From Bryobacterales bacterium (GTDB lineage Bacteria > Acidobacteriota > Terriglobia > Bryobacterales > UBA6623): a stretch of DNA of 64,000 nt. The notes beneath the pieces are model-generated. The model searched no databases. It saw only the letters and a list, made by a program, of their open reading frames with translations, and was not told where the DNA came from. Where the stretch lies: the NCBI GenBank assembly GCA_965219605.1, contig CBDCOC010000004.1, positions 28,000 to 91,999 of the forward strand. Reading direction: 5' to 3'. The number at the start of each line of letters is the position of its first letter. Position 1 is the stretch's first letter. A program made the position numbers and the translations under genes. Shown piece by piece: positions 3,359 to 63,912 of this stretch.

Positions 3359-5552
3359 TCGGTGCATGCTGCGTGTGAGGGGAGCGGATCGCGTCTGGTG
3401 AGGCTAGTGGAGCAGCGCGCAGGAGTCCGCACAACTCGTTGCGCAGGCGCTGGCGCAGTATTGGCTGGGCTTGGACCGGGTGGCTGGGCCGAGTAGGCGC
3501 AGCGGGAGTGTTGCCAGCACGGTGCGGCTGCATTGGACGGGGCTGGGGCCGGGCTAGTGGCGGGGTGGTTGTAGCAGGCAGTCGAGGGCCTCCTGCGGGC
3601 GGGCCGCGAAATGGCGGTTAGCCTGCGGCAGGTAGCGGAATTGCGGCAGGCCGCGGATGATCGAGATGGCGGTGTTGGTCAGGCAGGCCAGATTGCGCGG
3701 CAAGTCGCGCACATACACGCGGCAGCGGTCCTCGTCGTAGGTGAAGTCGCGCACGTAGTGCAGGCGGTTTTCGATGTGCCAGTGCTTGCGCAGCAGTTGC
3801 GCGAGTTGCGCGGGCGTGGCTTGCGCAGGACTCAGCGAAGTCAGCGCGTAGGTCACTTCGGTGCTGCACTTGCCGGTCTTGACGTGCGTGCGTCGGCGCT
3901 CGACGCGGATCGCCTGCTGACGACCGTACAGCTTGGCAGAGCCATCCCAAGCCGCAGCGCTGATGTCCTTGACTTGGTAGCTGCGGTGCTCGCTACGGCC
4001 ATGCTTGCGGTCGCTGGTTTCCACCAGCGGGCAGTCGCTGAAGTCCATGCTGCGCAGGTCGGCGAGGATGGTTGGCTGGTTGCCCTTGATGGCGGTGATC
4101 AGGTACTCGGCCTGGCACTCGTCGAGCACGCAGCGCGCCGTCTTGTGCTGGGCGTGCAGCGCGTCGCCGGTCACCACGCGGCCCTGCAGCGGCAGTTGCC
4201 GGGCCAAGTCGCAGAAGGCCGGGATCTCGTTGCTCTTGCTGTCGATCTCGAGCTGCCCCAGCACCACGCCGCTATCCTGTTCCACGGCCGCGAGCAGCAT
4301 GCGGCGCCCCCGCTTGGTCTGCTTCGAAGCCCCGCGCACGTCCTTGCCATCCAAGCTCACTGCGGGCAGCTGCGCCGGCCCGCTGCCGGTCGCCGGCGCC
4401 GCGTCCGCCGCTGGCCGGGCTTGGATGTGCGCGCTCTGCTGGCCGGCCCAAGCGCGCGTGGCTTGTTCCAGCGTCTGCGGCTCCAAGCTCGCCAAGATGT
4501 TGTGGAAGGTGGTGATCGAAGGACTCGTGTAGCAGTCCTTGCTGGGGCTGCGGAAACACTCCACCGCCGCCCGCTGGCCCTGGTCCAGCAAGGCTGCGAA
4601 CTGGGCGCAAGCGGTCACGCCGCGGTAGCCGCACAGGCGCGCCGCCACGGCCAGTGTCAGCACGCAGCGTAGTTCGTAGCGCTTGCCGCGAGCGTGCCGG
4701 TACTCGGGCACCTCGCCCAGAAACTCGAACAGACTGCGCAGCGTCTGCGCGTCCGGTGGTTGGCTGCGCTCGGGCCCCGCCCAGCACGGATCGTCCGCGC
4801 TGTGGGCCAGTTGCTGCGCCGCATGAGCTTGCACTTCGTACACAAACACCTCCTTGGGTTGACCGTGGCGGCGCCACTGCGGCCTGGCCGCCGGCACGCG
4901 CGCGTAACCGCCGCTCTGCCCCAGCCAGCGCCAGTTGGCGGCCCGGTAGCACGTGCCGGCGAAGCGTTGCTTGTCGACGAACGACTCCGCCAGCAGGATC
5001 GGGAAGCCATGCGCCGCCAGCATGTCGTCCGACAGCCGCCGCACACTCAAGCCCAGCACGCGCGAGGCCAGATTGGGCTGGCCCTGCCAGGCGGGCAGAA
5101 TCACAAAGCGCGAGTTCTGCAACACCAGGTGCAGGCGCTGGCGCCGCTGCTGCGCGCTCCAGCCGATCCAGCGGTCGCGGGCCGCCAGCTTGAGCGCGGC
5201 GGCCTGCCAGCCCAGCAAAGCGATCCACTGCTCGCCGAGCGTGGCCACTTGGCGCAGGGCCTTGCCGAACAGGCCCGTGAACGACAGATAGTGGTGGGCC
5301 GCCATCAAGCGATCCCAGCGCCGGTGCTCGCGCGCCCCCTGCGTGGGACGCACGCGCACCGTGCGCAAATCCAGCTCGCCCCCGCCGCTTGGCACAGCCA
5401 TTACAAGCTAGCCTGACAGATGGACAACAAAATGTCCAGCCCCCTGTGGCCCATTCCGCTCGGCAGCCGACCTGCGAGCGGCTAACCGCCAGGCACCGCC
5501 CCTATCCCTCCTGCCGTGCTCTGCCTCAAATCCGGACTAAAAAATGGTCCTG
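3343..5552. mobile_element. ISAs1-family insertion sequence (~2.2 kb) nested inside the IS110 transposase gene
   Basis: Imperfect terminal inverted repeats: CAGGTACATTTTTTAGTC at 3343-3360 and its partner at 5535-5552 (reverse complement CAGGACCATTTTTTAGTC). A flanking direct repeat CCCTGTCTGC(CA) lies at 3332-3344 and 5552-5564, giving a 10-13 bp target-site duplication whose exact length depends on where the repeat ends. One transposase ORF lies inside. Confidence 0.8.
3554..5401 (-). CDS. ISAs1-family DDE transposase with N-terminal DUF4338-like domain
   Basis: 615 aa. The C-terminal signature HWHIENRLHYVRDFTYDEDRCRV is diagnostic of ISAs1/DDE_Tnp_1. The N-terminal HHYLSFTGLFGKALRQ...WIGW block is conserved with this family. 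Confidence 0.8.
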   Translation of the reverse strand: MAVPSGGGELDLRTVRVRPTQGAREHRRWDRLMAAHHYLSFTGLFGKALRQVATLGEQWIALLGWQAAALKLAARDRWIGWSAQQRRQRLHLVLQNSRFVILPAWQGQPNLASRVLGLSVRRLSDDMLAAHGFPILLAESFVDKQRFAGTCYRAANWRWLGQSGGYARVPAARPQWRRHGQPKEVFVYEVQAHAAQQLAHSADDPCWAGPERSQPPDAQTLRSLFEFLGEVPEYRHARGKRYELRCVLTLAVAARLCGYRGVTACAQFAALLDQGQRAAVECFRSPSKDCYTSPSITTFHNILASLEPQTLEQATRAWAGQQSAHIQARPAADAAPATGSGPAQLPAVSLDGKDVRGASKQTKRGRRMLLAAVEQDSGVVLGQLEIDSKSNEIPAFCDLARQLPLQGRVVTGDALHAQHKTARCVLDECQAEYLITAIKGNQPTILADLRSMDFSDCPLVETSDRKHGRSEHRSYQVKDISAAAWDGSAKLYGRQQAIRVERRRTHVKTGKCSTEVTYALTSLSPAQATPAQLAQLLRKHWHIENRLHYVRDFTYDEDRCRVYVRDLPRNLACLTNTAISIIRGLPQFRYLPQANRHFAARPQEALDCLLQPPRH

Positions 5553-5564
5553 CCCTGTCTGCCA

Positions 5565-5844
5565 CCCGCCGCCAGCCCGTCGCCCAAGCCTGCTAGTGGC
5601 TAACGGCAAGTTCCACAAGCTCGCCCTCGTGGCTGTCATGCGCCGCTTGGCCTGCCTGCTCGACACCCTCTTGCGCGAAGCGCGAAGATCGCCTCTGGCA
5701 ACCCGAACCGCCCGCACGCCCTGCCGAGGCCCTCGCATGAATTGCCTGCTCCTCGCTGCCCGGCACTCCACGCCAGGCCCCCTCGCCTGCCACTGGCGCC
5801 CTCTTTTCCCGCTCCTGCCGCTTGACTTTCAACACGGAAGCTCT
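5565..5844 (+). pseudogene. IS110-family transposase C-terminal fragment plus element right end
   Basis: KLALVAVMRRLACLLDTLLRE matches the IS110-family C-terminus (KVALVAxMRKLL..LNAMLR). The nucleotide sequence is ~90% identical to the block at 42961-43189. Confidence 0.7.
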
Positions 5845-18710: not shown

Positions 18711-20003
18711 CAGGGAAATTCAATGTTCGCGGTGCGGAGTTGAGTGGCAAAGCAGGTCGCGGCGTGGGACTGGACAAACAGGCTGCAGGACTCGGATTCT
18801 GCCCCCTCGGGCGGCTCATGGCTGCTGGCCAGCAGCCCCTCAGCGCCTCGCTTCGACTCCCCAACCTTGTGCGGACTGAACATTGAATTTGCCTGGAGTA
18901 AAAAATGCACCCGCTGCAGAAAAATGTGGTATCCTGCTCGCTGCACGGTCCCGGCGCCACGTTTGCTCTGCTGGGATCGTCCAAGGAGTACCCTCATGCC
19001 AAAGCAATCCCCCCCCCCCCCCCCCGGAGATTCTGATACTTCGCGGGCGGCGGCGCTCGTTAAACGGTCGCCGACACTCGCCGTCGCGCTGGCAACCCTG
19101 ATCCTCGCCGCCCCGCTCGCGCTCCATGCCCAAACCCCACCCCCAATGCAATGCACGCTTCAGGATGCTAGGATGACGCAGTTCTGGCCAACGCCTGGCA
19201 GCCCTCTCCAAGAAGGTGGTGATGTCATCCTTAGCGTCCATTTCCCGAATAACTGCCTAGCCCACGCCAAGCCACTGACGGTCTGCTTGGACGTGTGGGA
19301 CACAACCGCCTGCCCTCTTGGAGCGGATCCGAGCCAGTGTGACGGGCGCATACGCGGCAATGCCGGGATTCTGCTGAGCCAAAATCTCGGCTGGGTGAAA
19401 GCCGGTGGCCCGAGGATCTGCAACACGAGGCTCCTTGAGGGATTCGAAATGAACGGGGTAACCCAAGCTATCACCTCGGCACAGCTTCTGATCAACACTT
19501 TTAACGACACCACCAAGGCCAACCGGCAGAACCATATCCTTGCCGTGATGTACGACCCGTTTCTTCAGATCGTGCACATTCCCATCATCGACAATGACTG
19601 AGGACTGCCAGCAAGCACGCAAAGTGTAGCTCCTTGCGCCCGGCTGCGGCTGAACGTGTTTTCCTGCAAGGCGCCGGGTAGAGGAGTTCGTCCCCGCTAT
19701 CGAAGACGAGCGGGTGCCAAACACGTACAGCGCGCGGCCGAGGCCTTCGGGCGCGATCTCGCTGACCGCTGCGCGGAAGCGGTCCAGTGTGCCGAGTGCA
19801 TCGCCAAGAACGGCAGCCGCATGTGCTTTTCCGAATTTCGCCAGCAGGGCCTGTGCGTCGGCTCGGGAGTGGCATGCGCACCGGGCCCTGCTGCCGCGAT
19901 CACATCGCCGGCTCAATGTACCGGTGGCTCGTCGCGCTTGTCACCCCTCAGCGCCTCGCTTCGACTCCCCAACCTTGTGCGGACCGAACATTGAATTTGC
20001 CTG
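18711..20003. mobile_element. 1.29-kb non-autonomous TIR-bounded element flanked by a 27-bp direct repeat. It carries the poly-C secreted-protein gene and an internal duplicate of its right end (18837-18895).
   Basis: Left TIR CAGGGAAATTCAATGTTCG at 18711-18729 and right TIR CGAACATTGAATTTGCCTG at 19985-20003, matching at 18 of 19 positions. The flanks TCATCGAGATGGCTGGCGTAAGATCCC at 18684-18710 and 20004-20030 are identical 27-mers. Confidence 0.6.
18996..19601 (+). CDS. Small secreted cysteine-containing protein of unknown function; poly-C tract at codons 5-10
   Basis: MPKQSPPPPPGDSDTSRAAALVKRSPTLAVALATLILAAPLALHA forms a signal peptide. The region has lower GC than its surroundings. A 17-nt C homopolymer lies at 19009-19025. 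Confidence 0.5.
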   Translation: MPKQSPPPPPGDSDTSRAAALVKRSPTLAVALATLILAAPLALHAQTPPPMQCTLQDARMTQFWPTPGSPLQEGGDVILSVHFPNNCLAHAKPLTVCLDVWDTTACPLGADPSQCDGRIRGNAGILLSQNLGWVKAGGPRICNTRLLEGFEMNGVTQAITSAQLLINTFNDTTKANRQNHILAVMYDPFLQIVHIPIIDND

Positions 20004-20121
20004 TCATCGAGATGGCTGGCGTAAGATCCCGCTTTACGGTGTGCTACACTTCCGCTGTTGCCAGTGGGGGCGACACTCTGGATTGTCGGATCTCAGTCGC
20101 TTCGATATCCAGACATGCTAT

Positions 20122-20365
20122 TTAGTGCCTGCGACAAAAGCATCTATGTCATTGTATTCAAAACGGTTATGTGCAATCGACGCAGGCCAAGATTCGGCAC
20201 GAGGAGGCCCGTTGGACCGAATCCGGCCCGGTAGCTGCGATCTTCGCCTGACGACAACCCACTGCGCATCGGGTAGCCTGCTCCAAGAAGCCTTTATTCC
20301 GTTCACCAATCGGCCCGTTTTGCTAGCGGAGATCGGATTTTAGGGGGTTTTGTCTCAGGCACTAT
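20122..20365. mobile_element. MITE-like element, copy a (~244 bp)
   Basis: TIR AGTGCCTGCGACAAAA ... TTTTGTCTCAGGCACT. The flanking duplication is ATTT if the TIR starts at AGTGC, or TATTTA if it starts at GTGC. The element is ~85% identical to copies at 41917-42156 and 44417-44640. Confidence 0.7.
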
Positions 20366-20392
20366 TTAGACTGTAAAAGGAGAGTATGCAAG

Positions 20393-23300
20393 ATGCGCAG
20401 GATTATACGCAACTTGAGCCTGCTCGCTGTTGCGGCACTGCTGGCAAGCACCCCAGTGATGCGACTTGATGCGCAGGTTCTCAAGGGCCAGATTCTCGGG
20501 ACCATTACCGATCCGTCGGGTGCGGTGATTCCCGGGGCAGCCATCACCCTGATGGAGACGAACACGAACGCCGCGCGCGCAGGCGAGACCAATGAGAGCG
20601 GCCTGTACGTGTTCCCCAATCTTGACCCGGGCATGTACCGGGTCGAAGTCGCTTCCGACGGATTCAGCACCTCGGTGCGAGGGGGCGTTGAGTTGCAGCC
20701 GAACTCGACCGTGCGAGTCGACTTGGAACTGACGCCTGGCGCGGTGACCGAGACCGTCACCGTGACCGGCGCCCCGCCGGTGTTGCAGACCGACCGCTCC
20801 GACACCAGCGTCAAGATCGAGAACAAGCAGCTCAAGGAGCTGCCCCTGCTCTTCAACCGCAATTACCAGGGACTGCTGGCCACCGTGCCCGGCGTGGGTC
20901 GGCTGACACGTCCGCACTCGCAGTTCTACAACTCGCAGGATTCGCTGGCGGTGCGTGTCAACGGCCAAGGGCGCCAGTACAACAACTTCCAGATCGAAGG
21001 GATCGAGAACAAGATCGACAACGGCAACCTGACGGCGTTGGTGCCACCCGCGGAAGCGATCCAGACGGTCGACATTTCCACTTCCAACTTCGACCCTGAA
21101 TTCGGCAATGCCGGCGGATCCGTCGTGAATGTCACGCTCCGCTCGGGAACCAACGAATTCCACGGAAGCGTGTTCGCCTTCCATCGCAACGAGAACGCCC
21201 AAGCTACGCAGGTCTTCGCAACGAGCAAGGCGCACACCGTGTACAACCAGTTCGGCTTCACGGCAGGCGGCCCCATCATTCGCAACAAGATGTTCATCTT
21301 CGGCGATTACCAAGGCAGTCGTGACCACCTCGGCCAGGTCGAGCTGGACCGCATCCCGACCACCCCGTTCCGCACGGGCGATTTCTCGGGCGAAGGGGCC
21401 ACGATCTACGACCCTCTGACCGGTGACAGCGAGGGTAACGGACGCACCGCTTTCATGGGCAACACGCTCCCGGCGAGCCGCATCAGCCCGATCGCGGCGG
21501 CGATGGTCGGCTTCATCCCGCAGCCCAACCGTCCCGGGGAGATCGGTTCCCGCAACCAGGAGATCCCGGTCGTCCGCATCAAGAACATCAATGCATTCGA
21601 CGTGAAGTACGACTATGTCGTGAACCCCAGCGGGAGGCTGACGTTCCGCTATAGCTACCAGAAGGCGACGGTGACGGATTGCGGCCTCTACGGCCCCAAT
21701 TGCGGCATCTACGGCGGCCCGCGCAACAACGGCTTTTCCGGAAGCGGCCCGGCACGGACGCAGAGCCCGATGCTTTCCTATTCGCACGTGTTCTCGCCGA
21801 CGTTCGTCTGGGAGGGCCGCTTCGGCATCGTCCGCAATCGCAACGACGCCATCAATGCCGACACCGGCTTGCGGACATCCGAGGAAATCGGTATCCCCGG
21901 CGTCAACATCAACGAGTGGACAAGCGGCCTCTCCGAGGTTCGGGTCAACGGCTTGGACCGGCCTCTGGTCGGCTTCTCGCCATCCCTGCCGTGGGCGCGG
22001 TCGGTCACGTTCTTCGGCATTGTCAACAACTTCACCAAGACGTTCGGTAACCACGTGACGCGCTTCGGGTTCGAGGTGCGGCGAGAGCGCAACGACCTGC
22101 TGCAGACGCAAACGTTCAACCCGCGCGGCCGGTTCACCTTCGCGCGCGGCCAGACCGCCTGCAACGCCGAGTGCGACGGGCCCAACCAGACGCTGGGCAT
22201 CGCCAACGCCTTCGCCGCCTTCCTGCTTGACCAGCCGGGCGGCCACGGCCGCGACTTGGATGTCCAGTTCCCGACGCGGCGCGAGCTGATTCTGGCGGGG
22301 TACATCCAAGACAAGTGGCAGGCCAGCTCGAAGCTCACGTTCGATTTCGGCTTGCGCCTGGAGCGCGAGAACCCCTCCAAGCCGCGCTTCCCCGGCAGCT
22401 ACTCGAACTACAATCCGCTCACGAATGCGCTGGAGCTGAGCGGCATCGGCGGCCGGCCGGAGGACAACGGCATCCGGCCGGACCTCGGGTGGGGGCCGCG
22501 CCTCGGCATCGCATACCGTCTGAACGACAAGACCGTGCTGCGCACGGGCTACGGCATTAGCTTCATCAACCGCATCATGGGGCAGCAGAACTTCCCGGTC
22601 AAGCAGAACAACGCCTTCGTGGCGCCGAACTCGTTCACCGCGTCGGGCGCCATGGCCGAGGGATTCCCCGCGTTCCAAGCGTTCGCCATCCCCGACAACG
22701 GGCTGATCGACTTGAGCGCGCCGGAGAACGCCCTCTTTGCGCGGCAGAACTTCAACTGGGTCAACCCAGACATGAGGCGGCCCTATGTGCAGAGCTGGAA
22801 TTTCGCGATCCAGCGCACGCTGGTCTACGACTTCACGCTGGATCTGGCGTACGTCGGTAACCACGGCGTCAACAACCAGAGCAATTGGGAGTACAACGCC
22901 GCGACCACGCCGGGCACGGGCAATGCGACCCGTCCGCTCAACGTCCTCTTCGGGCGCACGCAGAACACCAGCACGCGGATCGGCACGCACACCTATTACA
23001 ACTCGCTGCAGATGAAGATCAACCGCCGCTTCAGCCAGGGCTTCTCGATGACGAACGCCTACACTTGGAGCAAGGGCCTGAACTTCAGCGACGACACGGG
23101 CGGGCTGCAGGTCGACGGCATCACCGGCGCGTTCCACACCAACAAGGGGCGCACGAACCAAGACCGCCGGCACACGTGGGTGTCGAGCTACACCTACGAA
23201 CTGCCGTTCGGCAAGGGCAAGCGGTTCCTGAAGAGCGGGCCCGGACGCTGGCTGTTCGGCGACTGGCAGTTGCAGGGCATCGTGAGCGCCATGAGCGGCG

Positions 23301-23719
23301 AGCCCTTTACTGTCACCGCGCCCGGCTCGACGCTGAACGCCGCCGGCAACAGCCAGCGCGCCGACGTGGTTGGCACGCCGACCCGCATTGGGGAAATCGC
23401 GGGGCCGAACGGGACCGCTCTGTGGTTCACGACCGACGCCTTCGCCGTGCCGAAGCAGGACACCCTCGGCGATGCCGGCCGCGAGATCCTGGACGGGCCG
23501 GGCCTGTTCAACTGGGACTTCTCGGTGTTCCGGCGCTTTCCGGTCGCGGCCTTGGGCGAGAGCGCGGCTCTGACGTTCCGTCTGGAGTCGTTCAACTTCA
23601 CCAACACACCGCACTTCAACAATCCCAACGGGGACGTTTCCAATCGCAATTTCGGACGCGTGCAGAGCGCCGCCTCGGATCAGCGGCAGTTCCAGTTCGG
23701 GTTGACGTTGCGATTCTAG
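20393..23719 (+). CDS. TonB-dependent receptor with N-terminal carboxypeptidase-regulatory-like domain (Acidobacteria type)
   Basis: 1108 aa. The signal peptide is followed by QVLKGQILGTITDPSGAVIPGAAITL...ETNESGLYVFPNLDPGMYRVEV (CarbopepD_reg-like). Plug and barrel regions follow, and the C-terminus ends in F (QFGLTLRF). Confidence 0.85.
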   Translation: MRRIIRNLSLLAVAALLASTPVMRLDAQVLKGQILGTITDPSGAVIPGAAITLMETNTNAARAGETNESGLYVFPNLDPGMYRVEVASDGFSTSVRGGVELQPNSTVRVDLELTPGAVTETVTVTGAPPVLQTDRSDTSVKIENKQLKELPLLFNRNYQGLLATVPGVGRLTRPHSQFYNSQDSLAVRVNGQGRQYNNFQIEGIENKIDNGNLTALVPPAEAIQTVDISTSNFDPEFGNAGGSVVNVTLRSGTNEFHGSVFAFHRNENAQATQVFATSKAHTVYNQFGFTAGGPIIRNKMFIFGDYQGSRDHLGQVELDRIPTTPFRTGDFSGEGATIYDPLTGDSEGNGRTAFMGNTLPASRISPIAAAMVGFIPQPNRPGEIGSRNQEIPVVRIKNINAFDVKYDYVVNPSGRLTFRYSYQKATVTDCGLYGPNCGIYGGPRNNGFSGSGPARTQSPMLSYSHVFSPTFVWEGRFGIVRNRNDAINADTGLRTSEEIGIPGVNINEWTSGLSEVRVNGLDRPLVGFSPSLPWARSVTFFGIVNNFTKTFGNHVTRFGFEVRRERNDLLQTQTFNPRGRFTFARGQTACNAECDGPNQTLGIANAFAAFLLDQPGGHGRDLDVQFPTRRELILAGYIQDKWQASSKLTFDFGLRLERENPSKPRFPGSYSNYNPLTNALELSGIGGRPEDNGIRPDLGWGPRLGIAYRLNDKTVLRTGYGISFINRIMGQQNFPVKQNNAFVAPNSFTASGAMAEGFPAFQAFAIPDNGLIDLSAPENALFARQNFNWVNPDMRRPYVQSWNFAIQRTLVYDFTLDLAYVGNHGVNNQSNWEYNAATTPGTGNATRPLNVLFGRTQNTSTRIGTHTYYNSLQMKINRRFSQGFSMTNAYTWSKGLNFSDDTGGLQVDGITGAFHTNKGRTNQDRRHTWVSSYTYELPFGKGKRFLKSGPGRWLFGDWQLQGIVSAMSGEPFTVTAPGSTLNAAGNSQRADVVGTPTRIGEIAGPNGTALWFTTDAFAVPKQDTLGDAGREILDGPGLFNWDFSVFRRFPVAALGESAALTFRLESFNFTNTPHFNNPNGDVSNRNFGRVQSAASDQRQFQFGLTLRF

Positions 23720-28482: not shown

Positions 28483-28760
28483 CAGGACGAATTCGGTCTC
28501 TCGTACGGTGAAGAGGGAGGACCAAGCCAGTCGCGCCCCCGGGCGGGGCCCGGATCATTCGGTTGGAAACACGTGGCTTGGCGTAGAATCAGAGCGGAGG
28601 GTTCCGGCAGTCAAGCCCCGTAATTTCATTGGTGCAGTATTTGCCCCAAAGCCAGTCTGGGTCCGGGCGAGCGATCATTCACTAGCGAGGTTTCTTCGGA
28701 AGCACTCCTCAACACCAGCATTGCAGAGCAATTGCCAACCCGGGCCGGGGCCTTCCGTGT

Positions 28761-30182
28761 GTGAGACAGGAGCAGCAGGAGGGAGATATGGCAAGAGAGC
28801 AGCCGGAGCGGGACCTGCCGGTGCAGCGCCCGCAGGTGGCGGGGGTGGACCTCGGCAGCCGCGAGCACTGGGCCTGCGGGCCGCCACGTGCGGACGGCAG
28901 GCCCAACGTGCGCACGTTCGGCACGACCACCGCGCAGTTGGACGCGTTGGCGGACTGGCTGGCGGCCGAAGGCGTGGAATCGGTGGCGCTGGAGAGCACG
29001 TATGTGTACTGGATCCCATTGCACGAGTTGCTGGAGGAGCGCGGTTTCGAGGTGTTGCTGGTCAATGCGCGGCAGTTGAAGAACGTGCCGGGGCGCAAGA
29101 CCGACATGCTGGACTGCCAGTGGCTACAGCGGCTGCACAGTTGCGGCCTGCTGCGGGGCTCGTTCCGGCCGCCCGAGACGGTGACGCAGCTGCGGGCGCT
29201 GCACCGGCAGTGGCAGAGCTTGGTGGCGGAGCGCACGCGCTGCGTGCAATGGATGCAGCGGGCGCTGGATCAGATGAACGTGCAGGTGCATCGGGCGGTG
29301 ACGGATCTGACGGGGCAGACAGGCATGGCGATCGTGCGTGCGATCGTGGCGGGGCAGCGCGATGCGGAGCAGTTGGCGCAGTTGCGCTCGGGGCGCTGCA
29401 AGCACACGGAGGAGCAGTTCGTGGAGTACCTGAGCGGCAACTGGCGGGAGGAGCACCTGTTCAACCTGCGCAGTGCGCTGCGGCTGTACGACGCGGTGCA
29501 GGCCGAGATGGACGGTTACGAGCAGAAGCTGCAAGAGGATCTGCAGCAGCAGGCGGGCGAGGAATGCAGCGCGGAGGAGTGTCCGCGGCACCCGAACGCG
29601 GCCAAGGAGAAAGCCATCCGAAGGCGGGGTGAGCAGCCGCTGCGGACGGCGCTGTACCGCTACGCGAGCGTGGATCTGACGCGCATCGACGGGATTAGCG
29701 CGGGGGCGGCGCGCACGATCCTGACCGAGGTGGGGACGGATCTGGGGTCGTTTCCGAGCGAGCGGCATTTCACGAGCTGGCTGGGCCTGGCGCCGCGGCA
29801 CGCGGTATCGGGCGGGCAGCAGTTGGCGGGCAAGCGGCAGCGCGGGCTGGGAGCGACGCGCACGTCGAACGCGCTGCGCATGGCGGCGACGGCGCTGATC
29901 CGGTCCAAGTCGGCGCTGGGGGCGGCGCTGCGCCGCAAGGCGCGGCACAAGGGGATGAAGACGGCGGTGTTCGCCACCGCCCGCAAGCTGGCGGTGTTGG
30001 TATACCGCATGCTGCGCTTCGGCCAGGACTACGTTGACGAGGGCGAGGCGGCCTACGAGCAGCGCCATCGCCAACGGACCTTGGCCTACCTCAAAACGAC
30101 AGCTAAGGATCTCGGCTACCAGCTGCTTCCCGACACTGCACAAACTGCTTCCCGGGACGCTGTGGGGGCAGGGGCGGGCTAG
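28761..30182 (+). CDS. IS110-family transposase (second, distinct element; IS1111-like subgroup is a guess)
   Basis: 473 aa. The N-terminal VAGVDLGSREHWA (DEDD domain) is followed by a Transposase_20 region (LDLTRIDGISAGAARTILTEVG..FPSERHFTSWLGLAP). The likely start is Met 28788. Confidence 0.8.
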   Translation: MRQEQQEGDMAREQPERDLPVQRPQVAGVDLGSREHWACGPPRADGRPNVRTFGTTTAQLDALADWLAAEGVESVALESTYVYWIPLHELLEERGFEVLLVNARQLKNVPGRKTDMLDCQWLQRLHSCGLLRGSFRPPETVTQLRALHRQWQSLVAERTRCVQWMQRALDQMNVQVHRAVTDLTGQTGMAIVRAIVAGQRDAEQLAQLRSGRCKHTEEQFVEYLSGNWREEHLFNLRSALRLYDAVQAEMDGYEQKLQEDLQQQAGEECSAEECPRHPNAAKEKAIRRRGEQPLRTALYRYASVDLTRIDGISAGAARTILTEVGTDLGSFPSERHFTSWLGLAPRHAVSGGQQLAGKRQRGLGATRTSNALRMAATALIRSKSALGAALRRKARHKGMKTAVFATARKLAVLVYRMLRFGQDYVDEGEAAYEQRHRQRTLAYLKTTAKDLGYQLLPDTAQTASRDAVGAGAG

Positions 30183-30345
30183 GGTGTTTCACACCAGCTG
30201 CTTCCCGACACTGCACAAACTGCTTCCCGGGACGCTGTGGGGGCAGGGGCGGGCTAGGGTGTTTCACACCAGCTGCTTCCCGACACTGCACAAACTGCTT
30301 CCCGGGACGCTGTGGGGGCAGGGGCGGGCTAGGGTGTTTCACACC
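30121..30345. repeat. Perfect 3 x 75-bp tandem direct repeat spanning the 3' end of the IS110 transposase gene
   Basis: The unit AGCTGCTTCCCGACACTGCACAAACTGCTTCCCGGGACGCTGTGGGGGCAGGGGCGGGCTAGGGTGTTTCACACC is repeated exactly at 30121, 30196 and 30271. The transposase stop codon TAG lies inside unit 1. Confidence 0.9.
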
Positions 30346-30479
30346 AGGACCAGGGCTGCCAGCCCAAGCAGGTGCTTGCGATAGCGCGCGGACAGTCCGC
30401 GCCAGGCGAGCGGGGCCCGGTGGCGGCGGTCGAGCGCGTGCGAGCCGTGCTCGCGGGCATGGTGGTGGTCATGCATGGT

Positions 30480-41422: not shown

Positions 41423-41916
41423 CTAGGCTCTAACCCCGTGATTTGGCTATAACTACTTTTTCAATTACTTGAAGGTTCATCTCCTTGGCAAATGCGCGGA
41501 TCAGTTCGGAGCAAACTGGATTACTCCGGGGCAGTTCGGAGCGTAGGGTGGGTCCCAAAGTGGATCCCGGCGATGGCTTCTCCTTCGTCTAGTGCCTGCC
41601 AGCAGACTGTAGTCCCGTAATTCCGCGTTGGGCGGACTTCACGGGTGTACCTTATTGTCTGCAAGTCCGGCGATCAGTGCTCGCCTGTCGTTCATGTCAG
41701 CCATTCTGAAGCCGCATGGACGGAGTCGCCCGCGACAGCGTCGGCTGCACGGAGTTTGTCGTACTGCTGTCGGTGCGTACAAGGATAGGATTTGACCCAT
41801 CCCGACGACGCGCTGAGCTACATTTCTAGGCCAGCTAGCTCATCGAGCGTGCATCACGGGGTGTCTTCCAGTGCCCGGGCATGGTACCGTCAGGGGATTT
41901 ATCGTATGTCTTAGCT

Positions 41917-42156
41917 AGTGCTTGCGACAAAAGCATCCATGTCGTTGTATTCAAAACGGTTGCGTGCAATCGACGCAGGCGAAGATTAGGCGGGCAGCGG
42001 TCCGTTGGCTCGGATCCGGCCCATTAGCTGCGATCTTCGCCTGGCGGCAACCCACTACATACCGTGCAGCCTGCTCCAACAAGTCTTTACTTTGTTGACC
42101 AATCGGCCCGTCTTGCTAGTGGAGAACGGATTTTAGGGGGTTTTGTCGCAGGCACT
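41917..42156. mobile_element. MITE-like element, copy b (240 bp), ending ~30 bp upstream of the higB start
   Basis: TIR AGTGCTTGCGACAAAA ... TTTTGTCGCAGGCACT. The flanking duplication is AGCT or TAGCTA. Confidence 0.7.
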
Positions 42157-42186
42157 AGCTAGCCTCCCCTGTACATCTAGGAAATG

Positions 42187-42478
42187 GTGTGATCTGCTCG
42201 ATCCGACATGCCGGGCTAACGCGCCTGTTGGAGCGATAAGACGGCAGCAAACTGCCCCAGCAGCATCTCGGCCGGATCCGCAGGGCCTTGCAGCTTCTCG
42301 ACGCCGCCAGCCAGCCCGCCGATCTTTGCGGGGCGATGCGCGCCAAGCCACTCAGCGTTGGCCCCTGAGCCGGATACTGGTCGCTTCGAGTCACTGGAAA
42401 CCGGCGGATCGTTTTCCGTTTCGAGGAGGGTGCCGTCCACGATGTTGATTTCGTGGACTACCATGGGAAGCGCAAGCG
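42187..42478 (+). pseudogene. higB: higB-like RelE/ParE-family toxin gene with two in-frame stops (TAA near 42235 and TGA at 42361)
   Basis: The single-frame translation V/M-ICSIRHAGLTRLLER*DGSKLPQQHLGRIRRALQLLDAASQPADLCGAMRAKPLSVGP*AGYWSLRVTGNRRIVFRFEEGAVHDVDFVDYH is collinear with HigB (IKSFRHKGLKLLFEKGDSSGIRADHVKRLRLILARLDAASEVRDLNAPGNRLHKLKGDLAGHWSIRVSGNWRITFRFEDGDVEVVDYLDYH). Confidence 0.7.
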
Positions 42479-42494
42479 GCGATAGGAGGCCGGC

Positions 42495-42764
42495 ATGGGA
42501 CCGATGCAGAACTTAGAGCACCCCGGCGCGGTGATGCGCGAGTGGTGGCTGGAGGGGGCCGACCCCGCCGAAGCCGCCGACAGACTCGGTGTCGATCCCG
42601 GCACGCTGCAGCGTGTTCTCGACGGACGATGTGGCATCTCGCCGGAACTCGCCGCACTGTTGGAGGCCGGGGGATGGTCTACCGCCTCCTACTGGTTGCG
42701 GCTGCAAGCCGCGTACGACCGCGAGCAACTGTGGGAGCACAAAGCCGCGACTGCGGCCGCCTGA
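42495..42764 (+). CDS. higA: HigA-family HTH antitoxin
   Basis: LEHPGAVMREWWLEG..AADRLGVDPGTLQRVLDGRCGISPELAALLEAGGWSTASYWLRLQAAYD matches HigA/VapI (HPGEILREEFLEP...LAERLGVSRQTISELVNGKRAITPDMALRLSRFFGTTPEFWLNLQ). The true start may be Met 42534. Confidence 0.75.
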   Translation: MGPMQNLEHPGAVMREWWLEGADPAEAADRLGVDPGTLQRVLDGRCGISPELAALLEAGGWSTASYWLRLQAAYDREQLWEHKAATAAA

Positions 42765-42960: not shown

Positions 42961-43189
42961 CTAACGGCAAGCACCACAAGGTCGCCCTCGTGGCTGTCAT
43001 GCGCCGCTTGGCCGGCCTGCTCGACACTCTCTTGCGAGAAGATCGCCTGTGGCAGCCCGAACCGCACTGCCGAGGTTGTCGTATGAACTGCCTGCTCCTC
43101 ACTGCCCGGCGCTCTACGCCAAGCCCCCTCGCCTGCCACTGGTGGCCTCTTTTCCCGCCCCTGCCGCTTGACTTGCAACACGGAAGCTC
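42961..43189 (+). mobile_element. IS110-family 3' remnant: last ~229 bp including the transposase C-terminus and right end
   Basis: ~90% nucleotide identity to 5600-5844. It encodes KVALVAVMRRLAGLLDTLLREDRLW and ends in ...TTGACTTGCAACACGGAAGCTC. Confidence 0.75.
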
Positions 43190-43325
43190 AGAATGACTCA
43201 TTTTTATCCGTTTACGACAACTGTTCGAAAGACCGAGCGTTAGCCCTGCTGAATCATGTAAACTTGCTTGCAGTGCAAGCATCCAACCGCTTGGACAGAT
43301 CCTGCACCATCGGGAGATATCGCCA

Positions 43326-43571
43326 ATGGCGAGTATTACGATCCGCAATGTCGACGATGACTTGAAAACGCGCCTGAGGGTACGCGCAGCCGAGCACCGC
43401 CGTTCCACGGAAGAGGAGGTTAGAGTCATCCTGCGCGACACTGTGGGTGGAGGACGGGCGGCCCCTAGGGATCTAGTGAAGTTCACCTGCGAATGCTTCG
43501 CGTCTCTCGGCGGCGTCGAACTCGAACTTCCCCCGCGCGGCCCGATGCGCGAGCCTCCGGAATTTTCCTGA
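43326..43571 (+). CDS. vapB: VapB/FitA-like ribbon-helix-helix antitoxin
   Basis: MASITIRNVDDDLKTRLRVRAAEHRRSTEEEVRVILRD is the classic antitoxin N-terminus. A PIN-toxin gene follows after a 10-nt gap. Confidence 0.8.
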   Translation: MASITIRNVDDDLKTRLRVRAAEHRRSTEEEVRVILRDTVGGGRAAPRDLVKFTCECFASLGGVELELPPRGPMREPPEFS

Positions 43572-43581
43572 GCATCCCCCC

Positions 43582-44034
43582 ATGCTCGTCTCGGACACGA
43601 ACGTCGCGTCCGAACTCATGCGACCCGAACCGACGCCCTCGGTTGCGGCGTGGATCGCTGACCGCGACGAGGAGGATCTGTATCTGACAGCGGTCAGCGA
43701 AGCAGAACTGCTCTATGGCGTTGCGATCATGCCGACGGGCAGACGACGATATGCGCTGGAGGCCGCCATGAGTCGATGGCTCGACCTAGGCTTCGCCGAT
43801 CGGATTCTGCCGTTCGACAGCTCCTCCGCCCGAGCTTACGCAGAAATTGCATCCCGCCGCCGCCATGCGGGTCGGCCGATAGGAGAAGCCGACTGCCAAA
43901 TCGCTGCCATTTCCCGCTCGCACGGTGCTGTGCCGGTGACACGCAACGTCCGCGATTTTGAGGACACAGGCGTCGATGTTGTCGACCCTTGGACGCTACC
44001 GCGTCAGGATTCCCTTGGGAATCTGGGTGTCTAG
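43582..44034 (+). CDS. vapC: VapC PIN-domain ribonuclease toxin (FitB-like)
   Basis: LVSDTNVASEL...TAVSEAELLYG...DSSSARAYAEI...DCQIAAISRSHGAVPVTRNVRDF shows the conserved acidic PIN residues D5, E41, D97 and D115 with equivalent spacing. Confidence 0.85.
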   Translation: MLVSDTNVASELMRPEPTPSVAAWIADRDEEDLYLTAVSEAELLYGVAIMPTGRRRYALEAAMSRWLDLGFADRILPFDSSSARAYAEIASRRRHAGRPIGEADCQIAAISRSHGAVPVTRNVRDFEDTGVDVVDPWTLPRQDSLGNLGV

Positions 44035-44416
44035 TCAGTCAGCAGGAAAGGCTGCTCAGGGTCCTGCGGCGGAGTGCGCAGTTCTCTGTTGGTCCAGCTG
44101 CCAGGGGATGCGCCGAGCAAGCGCCGGGCTGTAGCGCACAGGGGAGGTGTCACGCGAGCAGCGTACCGTGCCCAGAGCGAGCAGTCCGAAGCACTCGAAC
44201 TCGCTGGCGGTATAGAAGCGACCGTTGTGGTTCTAGCTGCGCAGGTAGGGGGCTGGAGTCGCGGAACGGAGGGGGATGGCCCGGGAAGCCTGGCCAAGGG
44301 CTGTTGCGCTGGGAGTCGCCTGACCGCGGAGAGGCCAGCCAGCACGGGCAAGAGCAATTCCGGCGCACGCCGGGGGCACGATGATAGGGTGCGCGCTTCA
44401 GCTGCAGAAGGTACAT

Positions 44417-44640
44417 AGTGCGTGCGACAAAAGCATCCATGTCATTGTATTCAAAACGGTTGCGGGCAATCGACGCAGGCGGAAATTAGGCGGGCGGCGG
44501 TCCGTTCGCACGGATCTGGCCCATTGCTGCGATCTTCGCCTGGCAGCAACCCACTGCATGTCGCGCAGCCTGCTCCAACAAGTCTTCACTTTGTTCACCA
44601 ATCGGCCCGTTTTGCTGGTGGAGAACGGATATTTCTGGGG
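44417..44640. mobile_element. MITE-like element, copy c, 3'-truncated (right TIR missing)
   Basis: The left TIR is AGTGCGTGCGACAAAAGCATCC. The internal sequence is collinear with copies a and b up to ~44630. Confidence 0.6.
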
Positions 44641-44749
44641 GAGAGATCCTCCGCGCACAGGCAAGAACTGGCCGAAGAAAGCCGGAAAGTATGGGTTCAA
44701 CCCTCAAAAAATGAGACTGTATGCGAACTCTGTAGTGATTGAAGTCGTT

Positions 44750-45652
44750 TTATATCTTAGGTTCATGAGTTTCTAACGGAATTCTGACGCGGAAGGGCAG
44801 CAGTGCCGGCGTCCGAGACTTGTAGCGCGCATAGGCGGGATACTTTTTCTCGGATAGCCGCTCCGTCATGCGGATAACTCCGAGGAGCTGCATCGACAGC
44901 AGCGCTATGCCGAGACCGGTCCAGTGCAGCCACTGCCCGGATGCGGATACCGCAAATAGATTGAATGCAGACCACATCCCGATCTCGCACAGGTATGACG
45001 GATGGCGGCTGTAGCGAAACAGGCCCGTAGTGATGAAGGGCTGGACAACCTTCTCCCCGGCGGCAACCCTGCGCTTCTTGTCCTGCTGAAAAGCCCACAT
45101 CTGCTGGTCGCTAATGGATTCGCCGCAGAAACCGGCTAGGAAGAGCAGCAGGGCAAGGCCGTCCAGCCACCCTAGCGGCTGGCTCTTCCAGACCCACGCT
45201 TGATGCACCGGCGAGGTGAAGAGCCAAGGGAGCAGCAGCTGGCTCGGCGTGAACAAGACTATGCTGAGCAGGCGATACCGGAGCGGGCCGATCCTCTCTT
45301 TCAGGGACTCCCAGCGGTAGTCCCTGTAACTCTTCCGGTAACCGCCCTTGCGGACGAAATTAAAGGTCATCCTTGCCGCCCAAAGGAACGCGAGTGCTGT
45401 CATCACGTTGACGCGAACAGCGTCGAAGCCGCCCGTCAGCACGAGTGCCAGGCAGCACGCCGGCGGGGTCAGCGCCCATAGGCGGTCCAGCCATTCGCTG
45501 CAATCGCCGGTGACCAGCGACAACGCCCACACCAGCACCACGAGGCACAGGCACAAATCCAGCGAGCTGCCGAAGGGCTGCCCGCTGAGAGGATGGCTGA
45601 TCAGATCTAGCGCGGACACTTCGGAAACCTGCCGGCGGGACTGTCCCGGCAC
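44750..45652 (-). CDS. DUF1295 family membrane protein (steroid 5-alpha-reductase / ICMT-like fold)
   Basis: The C-terminal block GLFRYSRHPSYLCEIGMW...EKKYPAYARYKSRTPALLPF is the DUF1295 signature. Multiple TM helices are present. Confidence 0.7.
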   Translation of the reverse strand: MPGQSRRQVSEVSALDLISHPLSGQPFGSSLDLCLCLVVLVWALSLVTGDCSEWLDRLWALTPPACCLALVLTGGFDAVRVNVMTALAFLWAARMTFNFVRKGGYRKSYRDYRWESLKERIGPLRYRLLSIVLFTPSQLLLPWLFTSPVHQAWVWKSQPLGWLDGLALLLFLAGFCGESISDQQMWAFQQDKKRRVAAGEKVVQPFITTGLFRYSRHPSYLCEIGMWSAFNLFAVSASGQWLHWTGLGIALLSMQLLGVIRMTERLSEKKYPAYARYKSRTPALLPFRVRIPLETHEPKI

Positions 45653-61974: not shown

Positions 61975-62493
61975 AAAGTGAAGAAAAGCCATGCTGCGCT
62001 CACTGTCATCACCGCTAATCCGAAGTTCCAAGAGACTCTTCCAATGCGAAATGAGACTGAAGAGCGGGGTTGTTCCAACGGGAAGTAGACTAAAGGGCCT
62101 CGCGAGGGGATTTGGGAAGCATGGTTGCGTCAGGACAAGTCTTGGAGGGAAGGAAAGCCAATGAGCTGAAACTTCTCGCAGCGAGCCAGCGGGTTCGACT
62201 CCTGTCCGGCAAAGGTGCAGCCCAGCAGCCGCGAGTGAGTGTTGCATGGCCTCTGGTAACGCAGGTCGTGAAGCTTACGCAACGGGCGGCGAAGCGCCGG
62301 TATCGAGACTCGCAATCCTCCTTGTCGGTGCCTTCAGCGTCCATTGCCTTGGGGAGCAGCACCGCCAGAGCCGCTAAGGGCAAGGCGCTGGGGGATCGGC
62401 CGGGGACCGAGAGGAAGTGAGGCACCTGCTGTTCGCGGCTATCCGCACGAAGTAGGGCGGGACACTGCGGCAAAACGGATGCTATAGGAGACG

Positions 62494-62655: not shown

Positions 62656-63912
62656 TTGGGATCGGAAAGGAATCTGATACGCTATAGTAGTTTAATGAAA
62701 GGTGGAGATTTTCCGGTGAACGACACGCTTGATCTCAACATGATTCTGTTGGCCTGCGCCGACGACGGGCTCGACGATGGCATTCGCATTGACACCAACC
62801 TCGAACCAATAGCAGGGGAGGGTTCTCCAGTAAAGCCTGCCGTTTACGAGGGCGGCGTCTACCAAGAAGATCGCCGCTGGGCCAATCCCACTGATACTGA
62901 GCCCACCAGAGTCATCGTCATCGATAACGTCCCGTCGCAGGCCAACCGCTTGGAGGACGCTCTTCGACGGCATCGGAAGGCCACCGGTGTACCCGAATTC
63001 GTACTCGACCTCTCCGGGGTCAATGGGTTGCCTGCACATTTGCCTCGACGCCTGTCAAGCCTGTGGTTTCCGCACCGAAACGCCGATGCGTACCTTCGCG
63101 ACGCGATGCTCGGCGACATTGATTTTATGAAATCAGAAATCGGAACAGCCATCTTCGGTGCCACCGCGCAGACCTGCGGTCCGCTGATTGCTTGGTTTCC
63201 GCAGGCTCTGCTGTACGGGTTCTGGCAGTCCCATCTAGGCAAGAAACGAGCCAACACGAAGCACGCACGGGCTTGGGTGTCTGAGATTGTCGGTTGGAAT
63301 CCCGCCTCCCCCGATGTCGTCAAGGTGCTCGGCTTGAAGGGCGACCCACTTAACCTTAACACTGATGAGACGATCAACTCGAATCCTGACGACCGCACGG
63401 CGTGGACCGTCGGGGTGAAGGCAATCGAAGGCGGCAAGAAAGACAAGCTCTCGAAGATCGGCCACGGGCAGGTACCTTTCATGGAGGGCGATGCCTCGGC
63501 GGGCAGCGTTTCTTTCGTGCGGGTCACACAGCGAGCCACGGTCTCGTTCGCGCAGCTTCGCAGGATCAGTCTCGGACAGGATTCCCGCGATGGCGACACA
63601 GCGACGCGCGCTTTGCTAGTAGCGCTCGGGCTGCACGCCCACCAGTTGGCGTTTGGCAGTGGATTCACGCTTCGTTCAGGGGCAGATTTCCGCCCCCGGA
63701 ACGTCACGGGGACGTGGCTCGGTGCCAGTGCGGATGCGCAGATCTCTTTGGGTGCGGCTACTGACTCCGGGAGGCTTCTCATGCACGCTCTCGAGCACGC
63801 GAGGGCAGTTGGTGTTCCCCTAGATGGCTGGACACGCGACGAAGTAGTCCTCTCACCCAAAGACAATCTTCTAAGGGCGATCAACGCCACTTGGCCGGGG
63901 TTCGCAGACTGA
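62656..63912 (+). CDS. csb1: Putative type I-G (I-U) Cas7, Csb1/GSU0053-family
   Basis: The blocks ...PVKPAVYEGGVY...RVIVIDNVPSQANRLEDAL and ALLYGFWQSHLG...ARAWVSEIVG fit my recollection of conserved cas7_GSU0053 motifs (V.LDSVQSQANRME; ALLFG.WDS; ARALVSEIVG). This is recalled rather than aligned. The true start may be Met 62695. Confidence 0.5.
   Translation: MGSERNLIRYSSLMKGGDFPVNDTLDLNMILLACADDGLDDGIRIDTNLEPIAGEGSPVKPAVYEGGVYQEDRRWANPTDTEPTRVIVIDNVPSQANRLEDALRRHRKATGVPEFVLDLSGVNGLPAHLPRRLSSLWFPHRNADAYLRDAMLGDIDFMKSEIGTAIFGATAQTCGPLIAWFPQALLYGFWQSHLGKKRANTKHARAWVSEIVGWNPASPDVVKVLGLKGDPLNLNTDETINSNPDDRTAWTVGVKAIEGGKKDKLSKIGHGQVPFMEGDASAGSVSFVRVTQRATVSFAQLRRISLGQDSRDGDTATRALLVALGLHAHQLAFGSGFTLRSGADFRPRNVTGTWLGASADAQISLGAATDSGRLLMHALEHARAVGVPLDGWTRDEVVLSPKDNLLRAINATWPGFAD

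What the first reader, a model, noticed from the sequence alone, without database searches (positions are those of the whole stretch)
20122..20365. Novel ~240-bp MITE family, three copies (20122-20365, 41917-42156, 44417-44640)
The copies share 16-17 bp TIRs (AGTGCCTGCGACAAAA...TTTTGTC(G/T)CAGGCACT). Internal complementary segments (AAAACGG...CCGTTTT) predict a long hairpin. Short AT-rich or palindromic flanking duplications (ATTT/TATTTA; AGCT/TAGCTA) are present. Copy c has lost its right TIR. Copy b ends ~30 bp upstream of the higB start codon, so it may supply or disrupt the higBA promoter. Copy a sits directly upstream of the TonB-dependent receptor gene.
Basis: seen in the sequence. Interest (0 to 1): 0.55.

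Follow-up and report, generated by a model that had tools for sequence, protein, structure and literature searches.

The report
Small transposon relic family in Bryobacterales
The three ~240-bp repeats are real copies of a miniature, gene-less transposon made from the two ends of an ISNCY-family insertion sequence of soil Acidobacteria (Bryobacterales); this is an ordinary kind of mobile DNA, not previously catalogued as far as I could check.

Summary
There are three copies, all on the + strand, 82-91% identical, with unrelated flanks.

The boundaries need a small correction:
- The element is 238 bp.
- It has 15-bp terminal inverted repeats, GTGCCTGCGACAAAA...TTTTGTCGCAGGCAC.
- It is flanked by a 6-bp target duplication of the form TANNTA: TATTTA at copy a, TAGCTA at copy b.
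- Copy c has lost its right end.

The MITE reading is supported, and a parent-type element was found. The same repeats and the same 6-bp TANNTA duplication bound 1.8-2.2-kb insertion sequences in Bryobacterales genomes. Each of these encodes one ISNCY-family transposase (NCBIfam NF033593).

One metagenome contig, L070, carries two things 545 bp apart:
- a fourth copy of this MITE;
- a 1836-bp IS whose left ~145 nt and right ~95 nt align along the whole MITE.

So the MITE is that type of IS with its transposase gene deleted. It also keeps a subterminal hairpin (CGAAGAT, 46 nt, ATCTTCG) that is conserved in all five ISs examined.

- The AAAACGG/CCGTTTT long hairpin is not supported.
- No promoter was detected in the element.
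- "higB" is a pseudogene.

Genome-wide copy number and an empty site could not be obtained.

Verdict: a new member of a known kind, of modest interest.

The parts
20119..20124 (.). Target-site duplication of copy a, left copy (TATTTA)
   Evidence: The same hexamer is found at 20363-20368. The 6-bp length is established by related elements.
20125..20362 (+). MITE copy a, 238 bp. Left repeat 20125-20139, right repeat 20348-20362 (14 of 15 complementary). Hairpin arms 20183-20193 and 20240-20250.
   Evidence: It is 100% identical, flanks included, in a second strain (L001).
20363..20368 (.). Target-site duplication of copy a, right copy (TATTTA). It lies 24 nt upstream of the ATG of the TonB-dependent receptor gene (20393-23719).
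41912..41917 (.). Target-site duplication of copy b, left copy (TAGCTA)
41918..42155 (+). MITE copy b, 238 bp. Repeats 41918-41932 and 42141-42155. Hairpin arms 41976-41986 (CAGGCGAAGAT) and 42033-42043 (ATCTTCGCCTG).
42156..42161 (.). Target-site duplication of copy b, right copy (TAGCTA)
44412..44417 (.). Left flank of copy c (TACATA). It fits the TANNTA target, but no matching right copy was found.
44418..44641 (+). MITE copy c, truncated or degenerate at the right. The left repeat and the hairpin are present. The right repeat is lost, so this copy is probably immobile.
42189..42485 (+). Context: higB-like pseudogene downstream of copy b, with in-frame stops at 42237-42239 and 42366-42368. 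It is followed by an intact HTH antitoxin-like ORF at 42495-42764.
20393..23719 (+). Context: gene for a TonB-dependent receptor with a CarboxypepD_reg domain, directly downstream of copy a.

Best explanation
The repeats are copies of a 238-bp non-autonomous transposable element (a MITE). It arose by one internal deletion of an ISNCY-family insertion sequence of Bryobacterales (Acidobacteriota).

The element keeps the IS left end, about 145 nt. That stretch runs from the 15-bp terminal repeat through a conserved subterminal hairpin to just past the transposase start codon. It also keeps the IS right end, about 95 nt. It has lost the transposase gene.

Inferred mechanism: a DDE transposase of the NF033593 type, supplied in trans by a full-length IS, binds the two GTGCCTGCGACAAAA ends and inserts the element at TANNTA sites with a 6-bp staggered cut, which produces the 6-bp duplications.

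The window copies are old and diverged (82-91% identical). Copy a is fixed in two strains. Copy c has lost one end and should no longer move.

Shown here: the anatomy, the duplications, the homology to the IS ends, and co-occurrence with such an IS on one contig. Inferred: mobilisation in trans, and any effect on neighbouring genes.
For: 1. Three copies lie in unrelated contexts with different 6-bp duplications.

2. A genome scan with the terminal 17-mer hit Bryobacterales MAGs far above chance. There the same ends bound a 2173-bp IS (six complete copies and further partial ones in one genome) and an 1821-bp IS. Each has one 499-524-aa ORF that matches NF033593 'ISNCY family transposase' above its cut-off (E 1e-112 and 9e-124).

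3. Ten of 13 paired elements have identical 6-bp flanks and one more differs at a single base; in two IS copies (L016, L019) the flanks do not match. Three with non-TA variants (GATCTA, CATCTA, TAGGTC) show that the hexamer is a duplication and not part of the repeat. Across 40 ends the target is T33 A39 N N T40 A36.

4. L070 holds a fourth full copy of this MITE, 88.7% identical to copy b, with flanks TAGCTA/TAGTTA. A 1836-bp IS encoding P0155 lies 545 bp away (NF033593, E 8e-129).

5. The MITE aligns to both ends of that IS:
- MITE 1-129 aligns to the IS left end at 69.7% (E 6e-10).
- MITE 182-240 aligns to the IS right end at 83% (E 9.5e-14).
- MAFFT extends these to about 145 nt and about 95 nt, which covers the whole element.
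- The hairpin arms sit at positions 63 and 116 in both the MITE and the IS.

6. All four MITE copies share the same deletion junction. That means one deletion followed by spread, not independent decay.

7. There is no conserved ORF, no Rfam match and no covariation among the copies.
Against: - No transposase of this family is encoded in the 64-kb window. Its presence elsewhere in the source genome could not be checked.
- No empty site was found. The only close strain (L001) also has copy a. Orthologous loci in related species lack the element, but their upstream DNA is not alignable.
- The best parent-like IS is only about 70-83% identical at its ends, so it is a relative of the true parent and not the parent itself.
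- A metagenome scan with a 21-nt left-end pattern found only chance matches, so the family looks rare or narrowly distributed.
- Copy number in the genome is unknown.
Confidence: 0.9

Rival explanations
1. The three copies come from a local segmental duplication, not from transposition.
For: All three copies lie within 25 kb and share the same orientation.
Against: - Similarity stops exactly at the element ends, and the flanks are unrelated.
- Each complete copy has its own 6-bp duplication.
- A fourth copy sits on an unrelated contig in the opposite orientation relative to an IS.
Confidence: 0.01
2. The repeat is a structured non-coding RNA gene or a cis-regulatory leader, for example of the TonB-dependent receptor, and only resembles a transposon.
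For: As RNA, copy b folds better than shuffles: z -4.95 on the + strand and -3.44 on the - strand. Copies a and b lie just upstream of + strand genes.
Against: - There is no Rfam match, even at E<=1.
- Among the copies the covariation term is unfavourable, and only 1 of 77 pairs shows a compensatory change.
- As DNA, copy a folds no better than shuffles (z -0.96).
- Copy c has no + strand gene directly downstream: the next gene (44750-45652) is on the - strand.
- The orthologous receptor genes in related species lack the element.
- The terminal repeats, the duplications and the homology to IS ends explain the sequence fully.
Confidence: 0.03
3. It is a MITE that also acts on its neighbours. 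It keeps the IS region upstream of the transposase start, and all window copies point towards the + strand. It could therefore drive or modulate transcription of the TonB-dependent receptor gene (copy a) and of the higBA remnant (copy b).
For: - The MITE retains the whole IS leader up to the transposase ATG. That stretch should hold the transposase promoter, unless the IS depends on outside transcription.
- Copy a separates the receptor gene from all upstream DNA, leaving only 24 nt plus the ribosome-binding site.
Against: - No sigma-70-like promoter or intrinsic terminator is found in copies a and b or in the IS leader.
- Promoter rules for Acidobacteria are poorly known, so this negative result is weak.
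- The shared orientation of three copies has a chance probability of 1 in 4.
Confidence: 0.15

Closest known systems
Bacterial MITEs that are internal-deletion derivatives of an IS (the classical 'type I' MITE; examples recalled from memory are Correia/IS-related elements and IS630- or IS5-derived MITEs)
   Same: - Small and non-coding.
- Terminal inverted repeats and target duplications identical to those of a full-length IS.
- Both ends collinear with the IS ends.
- Mostly intergenic.
   Different: The parent is an ISNCY-family IS of Bryobacterales. The target is TANNTA with a 6-bp duplication. I found no description of this family in the searchable literature, but ISfinder itself could not be queried.
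ISNCY family transposases, NCBIfam NF033593 (annotated relatives include 'ISNCY-like element ISRtr6 / ISMlo5 family transposase' on rhizobial plasmids)
   Same: The transposases of the full-length relatives score 377-430 bits against a cut-off of 325. There is a weak DDE_Tnp_1 match, and the second-best model is IS5 family.
   Different: - The window element encodes no protein.
- The annotated plasmid relatives are only 26-38% identical.
- From memory, the ISDol1 group of ISNCY has 6-7-bp duplications, which would fit. That assignment was not tested.
261-bp MITE family in other Bryobacterales MAGs (L029, L035, L043, L046, L063-L065)
   Same: - The same terminal repeats.
- The same 6-bp TANNTA duplications.
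- The same left subterminal hairpin core, CGAAGAT/ATCTTCG.
   Different: The interior is unrelated. The hairpin arms are 57 nt apart instead of 46. It is an independent deletion derivative of another IS of the same group.

Membership tests
MITE (non-autonomous IS derivative) | Small size (under about 600 bp) and no coding capacity | tested here: met
   The element is 238 bp. There are stop codons in all six frames, and no frame is conserved between copies.
MITE (non-autonomous IS derivative) | Terminal inverted repeats | tested here: met
   The repeats are 15 bp, 14 of 15 complementary in copies a and b. There are 5 ends in the window against 0.46 expected.
MITE (non-autonomous IS derivative) | Target-site duplication of fixed length at each insertion | tested here: met
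   The duplication is 6 bp: TATTTA at a, TAGCTA at b, TAGCTA/TAGTTA in L070. Copy c is not testable because its right end is lost.
MITE (non-autonomous IS derivative) | Several copies at unrelated loci | tested here: met
   There are three loci in the window with unrelated flanks and a fourth on contig L070. The genome-wide count was not obtainable.
MITE (non-autonomous IS derivative) | Ends shared with an autonomous element that encodes the transposase | tested here: met
   The 1836-bp IS in L070 aligns to the MITE over its left ~145 nt and right ~95 nt. The same repeats and duplications occur on the ISs in L008 and L025.
MITE (non-autonomous IS derivative) | Transposase source present in the same genome | not testable with these tools
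On L070 the MITE and the IS lie 545 bp apart.
MITE (non-autonomous IS derivative) | Insertion polymorphism (filled versus empty site) | tested here: inconclusive
   The close strain L001 also has copy a. The related species L059 and L060 lack it, but their upstream DNA is not alignable. No contigs were found for the neighbours of copies b and c.
ISNCY family IS (NCBIfam NF033593) | Encodes a transposase that scores above the model's cut-off | tested here: not met
   The window element encodes no protein, so it is a derivative and not a member. Its full-length relatives do meet the criterion, at 377, 414 and 430 bits against a cut-off of 325.
IS5 family | Transposase above the NF033578 cut-off | tested here: not met
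   The relatives score 93-107 bits against a cut-off of 275.
Known RNA family (Rfam 15) | Covariance-model match | tested here: not met
   There is no match at the gathering score in the window at these sites, and none at E<=1 on copy b.

The most novel reading that the evidence does not exclude
The left subterminal hairpin may be a cis-acting structured element that this IS group needs for transposition or for its control. That would explain why two independent MITE lineages kept about 130-145 nt of the left end.

Its features:
- The core is CGAAGAT...ATCTTCG.
- The arms are exactly 46 nt apart in five ISs whose transposases are only about 49-70% identical.
- The flanking pairs covary.
- The interior is not conserved.

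If it acts as folded DNA or RNA recognised by the transposase, that would be unusual for an IS5-like DDE element.
Probability: 0.15. Interest if true: 0.55.

Novelty: new member of a known kind. Interest (0 to 1): 0.3.

Why it matters
- It adds a defined MITE family to the poorly charted mobile DNA of soil Acidobacteria, together with its parent type: an ISNCY-family IS with a 15-bp repeat, a TANNTA target and a 6-bp duplication. This helps annotation, because these repeats break assemblies and can be mistaken for regulatory RNAs.
- Copy a sits 24 nt from the start of a TonB-dependent receptor gene, so it may affect that gene's expression.
- The conserved hairpin with fixed spacing gives a concrete, testable cis element for a large IS group that has not been studied. 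The group has more than 4500 relatives in public data.
- None of this changes how such elements are understood.

Tried and rejected
1. Plasmid collection, distant BLAST with copy b: no match.
2. Viral contig scan with the left-end pattern: nothing.
3. Metagenome scan with TGCGACAAAAGCATCNATGTC: three hits, all chance matches inside unrelated AT-rich genes.
4. A six-frame pseudo-protein of copies a and b, searched against 5.8 billion predicted proteins to catch spurious ORF calls on other copies: no hit.
5. Exact-protein look-ups for six gene products next to copies b and c, to find an empty site: none on record.
6. Orthologous TonB-receptor loci in two related species: no MITE, but the upstream DNA is not alignable, so there is no clean empty site.
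7. Reading with a 2-bp or 4-bp duplication and a 16-17-bp repeat: rejected, because three IS copies carry non-TA hexamers duplicated on both sides.
9. Structured-RNA reading: no Rfam hit and no covariation among the copies.
10. Promoter and terminator scans of copies a and b and of the IS leader: nothing.
11. The Methylotuvimicrobium plasmid relative: its ends are unlike ours, and I did not pursue it.

Full report
**Observation**

Reading the three places and aligning them confirms three related copies, all on the + strand. A local BLAST of copy b against the window finds only these three, at 100%, 90.8% and 85%. The repeat finder shows similarity confined to the element. The terminal repeat with up to 3 mismatches occurs five times against 0.46 expected, and 0 of 100 shuffles reach that number. 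The flanks do not align, so a segmental duplication is excluded.

**Boundaries**

Related elements settle this.

Twenty-four of these were in four Bryobacterales MAGs and one Acidobacteria MAG. Pairing the ends gave:
- six complete copies of a 2173-bp element;
- one 1821-bp element;
- four 261-bp elements.

In ten of 13 paired elements the six bases outside GTGCC...GGCAC are identical on the two sides, and in one more (L043) they differ at a single base; in two IS copies (L016, L019) they do not match. In three elements this hexamer is GATCTA, CATCTA or TAGGTC, so the 'TA' is part of the duplication and not of the repeat.

The element is therefore 238 bp, with 15-bp repeats and a 6-bp duplication. 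Over 40 ends the target reads T(33) A(39) N N T(40) A(36). Window coordinates:
- a: 20125-20362, flanked by TATTTA
- b: 41918-42155, flanked by TAGCTA
- c: 44418 to about 44641, with left flank TACATA and the right end lost

**What the large elements are**

The 2173-bp and 1821-bp elements each hold one ORF of 499-524 aa. These ORFs match NCBIfam NF033593, 'ISNCY family transposase', above its cut-off (377 and 414 bits against 325). They match the IS5 model only below its cut-off. Pfam gives a borderline DDE_Tnp_1 hit.

A protein search shows a large family: 4527 hits at E<=1e-60 among the candidates scored. The few hits that carry a name are called ISNCY family transposase of Bryobacterales. 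Annotated plasmid relatives (ISRtr6-like, ISMlo5-like) are only 26-38% identical. The window encodes no such protein.

The window itself comes from a relative of these MAGs. One of its genes is 76% identical in DNA to a Bryobacterales MAG. Its TonB-dependent receptor has 82-91% identical orthologues on Mb-sized contigs, and more distant homologues (53-70%) are named Bryobacterales, Bryobacteraceae or Acidobacteria.

**Link between the MITE and the IS**

At first only the terminal 20-27 bp matched other loci. Local alignment then showed that MITE positions 35-128 resemble the left subterminal part of the 1821-bp IS. For copy b, z was 6.6 and 0 of 500 shuffles scored as high.

To find a closer relative, I matched a short transposase relic in L003 against the 120 transposases retrieved. 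This relic lies next to a right end that is identical to the MITE's right end for 27 bp. The best match was P0155.

The contig that encodes P0155 (L070, 2959 bp) holds both of the following:
- a fourth full copy of this MITE at 338-575, 88.7% identical to copy b, with flanks TAGCTA and TAGTTA;
- 545 bp away, a 1836-bp IS at 1121-2956 with the same ends.

P0155 scores 430 bits on NF033593.

BLAST aligns MITE 1-129 to the IS left end (69.7%, E 6e-10) and MITE 182-240 to the IS right end (83%, E 9.5e-14). MAFFT extends these to about 145 nt on the left, ending just past the transposase ATG, and about 95 nt on the right. Together these cover the whole element.

All four MITE copies have the same junction. 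This means one deletion event followed by spread. That is the classical origin of a MITE.

**A conserved hairpin**

The internal inverted repeat of the MITE (CAGGCGAAGAT...ATCTTCGCCTG) is not private to it. The core CGAAGAT...ATCTTCG is found in the left ends of all five ISs examined (L025, L008, P0123, P0124, P0155). Their transposases are only about 49-70% identical to one another.

The arms are exactly 46 nt apart in every IS and in the window MITE. They are 57 nt apart in the 261-bp MITEs. In the MITE and in the P0155 IS the arms start at positions 63 and 116.

On an alignment of the arms:
- 83.6% of cells pair, against 37-48% when the partner is slid.
- Five pairs change on both sides.
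- The covariation score is 0.19 against 0.09, reached by 1 of 500 shuffles.

One caveat applies. The arms were located by their core motif, so only the flanking pairs and the G-C to U-A change in the L035-type MITEs (L035, L043 and L046, which share identical arms) are independent evidence.

The function is unknown. The hairpin lies in the leader before the transposase start in four ISs, but about 300 nt upstream of it in the 2173-bp IS. That argues against simple masking of the ribosome-binding site. Its retention in two MITE lineages is compatible with a cis role in transposition. This is inference only.

**Tests of other readings**

- There is no Rfam family at the gathering score, and none at E<=1 on copy b.
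- Copy b folds better than shuffles as RNA (z -4.95 on the + strand, -3.44 on the - strand). Copy a as DNA does not (z -0.96).
- The three copies give an unfavourable covariation term, with 1 compensatory pair out of 77.
- No sigma-70-type promoter or terminator is predicted in copies a and b or in the IS leader. This is a weak negative for an acidobacterium.

**Context**

- Copy a lies 24 nt, after its duplication, before the ATG of a gene for a TonB-dependent receptor with a CarboxypepD_reg domain. It is 100% identical over 300 nt in a second strain. It is absent upstream of the orthologues in two related species, where the upstream DNA is unrelated.
- Copy b lies 33 nt before a HigB-like frame (PF05015, E 5e-10) that has two in-frame stops. 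That gene is a pseudogene, and the HTH partner is intact.
- Copy c lies between a vapBC-like pair and a DUF1295 gene.
- The surrounding region is rich in mobile-element debris.

**Limits**

The remaining routes also failed: a pseudo-protein search and exact-protein look-ups for the neighbours of copies b and c. As a result, three things remain open:
- the genome-wide copy number;
- a transposase source in this genome;
- a filled/empty site pair.

**Verdict**

The finding is real and the MITE interpretation is right, with refined boundaries. A parent-type IS has been identified. It is a new member of a known kind, and interest is modest (0.3). The only less ordinary aspect is the hairpin with fixed spacing that is shared by the IS group and its MITEs.

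Noticed in passing
window 28521-30347: This is an IS110-family element (DEDD_Tnp_IS110 / Transposase_20) that is absent from this site in the 99%-identical strain L001. It ends in three tandem 80-nt units with a 75-nt period, at 30118-30347. L001 instead has three or four copies of the same IS in a row at its left end.
   Followed up: partly
window 5544-5843 and 42961-43190: Two copies, 87-93% identical, of a fragment that encodes the C-terminal part of an IS110-type transposase (…KVALVAVMRRLAGLLDTLLRE…). The second copy lies between MITE copies b and c.
   Followed up: partly
window 42189-42485: A HigB-like toxin frame (PF05015, E 5e-10) with two in-frame stop codons (42237-42239 and 42366-42368). 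The toxin is decayed, while the HTH antitoxin-like ORF at 42495-42764 is intact.
   Followed up: yes
window 43326-44034: A vapBC-like pair: a FitA-like ribbon-helix-helix antitoxin (43326-43571, E 1.5e-18) and a PIN toxin (43582-44034, E 6e-16).
   Followed up: partly
window 62196-62415 and 62656-63912: Group II intron RNA domains (Rfam RF02005, 93.5 bits) are followed by a 418-aa ORF, presumably the intron-encoded protein. The ORF was not checked.
   Followed up: no
window 18836-18895 and 19944-20003: Two 60-bp direct repeats, 98% identical and 1108 bp apart, lie just upstream of MITE copy a. They bracket ORFs, one of which has HTH_23/HTH_28 domains typical of transposase N-termini. This may be another mobile element or a long duplication.
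   Followed up: no
L063 1888-2151, L064 1909-2172, L065 1837-2100: A 261-bp MITE abuts the right end of the P0124-type IS, and a single TAACTA hexamer lies between the two elements. This suggests that one element inserted into the other's target duplication.
   Followed up: no
L014 1929-4877 (also L023, L034, L037): In one Bryobacterales MAG the ISNCY IS is truncated: only transposase residues ~176-475 remain. It is joined to a 467-aa serine-recombinase gene, and this 2.95-kb composite is itself repeated at least four times at 99% identity.
   Followed up: partly
L016 3719-5887 and L019 1918-4086: Two of the six 2173-bp IS copies lack matching 6-bp flanks (TACCTA versus TAGATC, and TAGGTA versus GATCTA). 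This is as expected if IS copies have recombined with each other and rearranged the chromosome.
   Followed up: no
Left ends of L025, L008, L066, L069, L070 and both MITE families: The hairpin core CGAAGAT/ATCTTCG has arms exactly 46 nt apart in all five ISs, although the interior is not conserved. Its function is unknown.
   Followed up: partly
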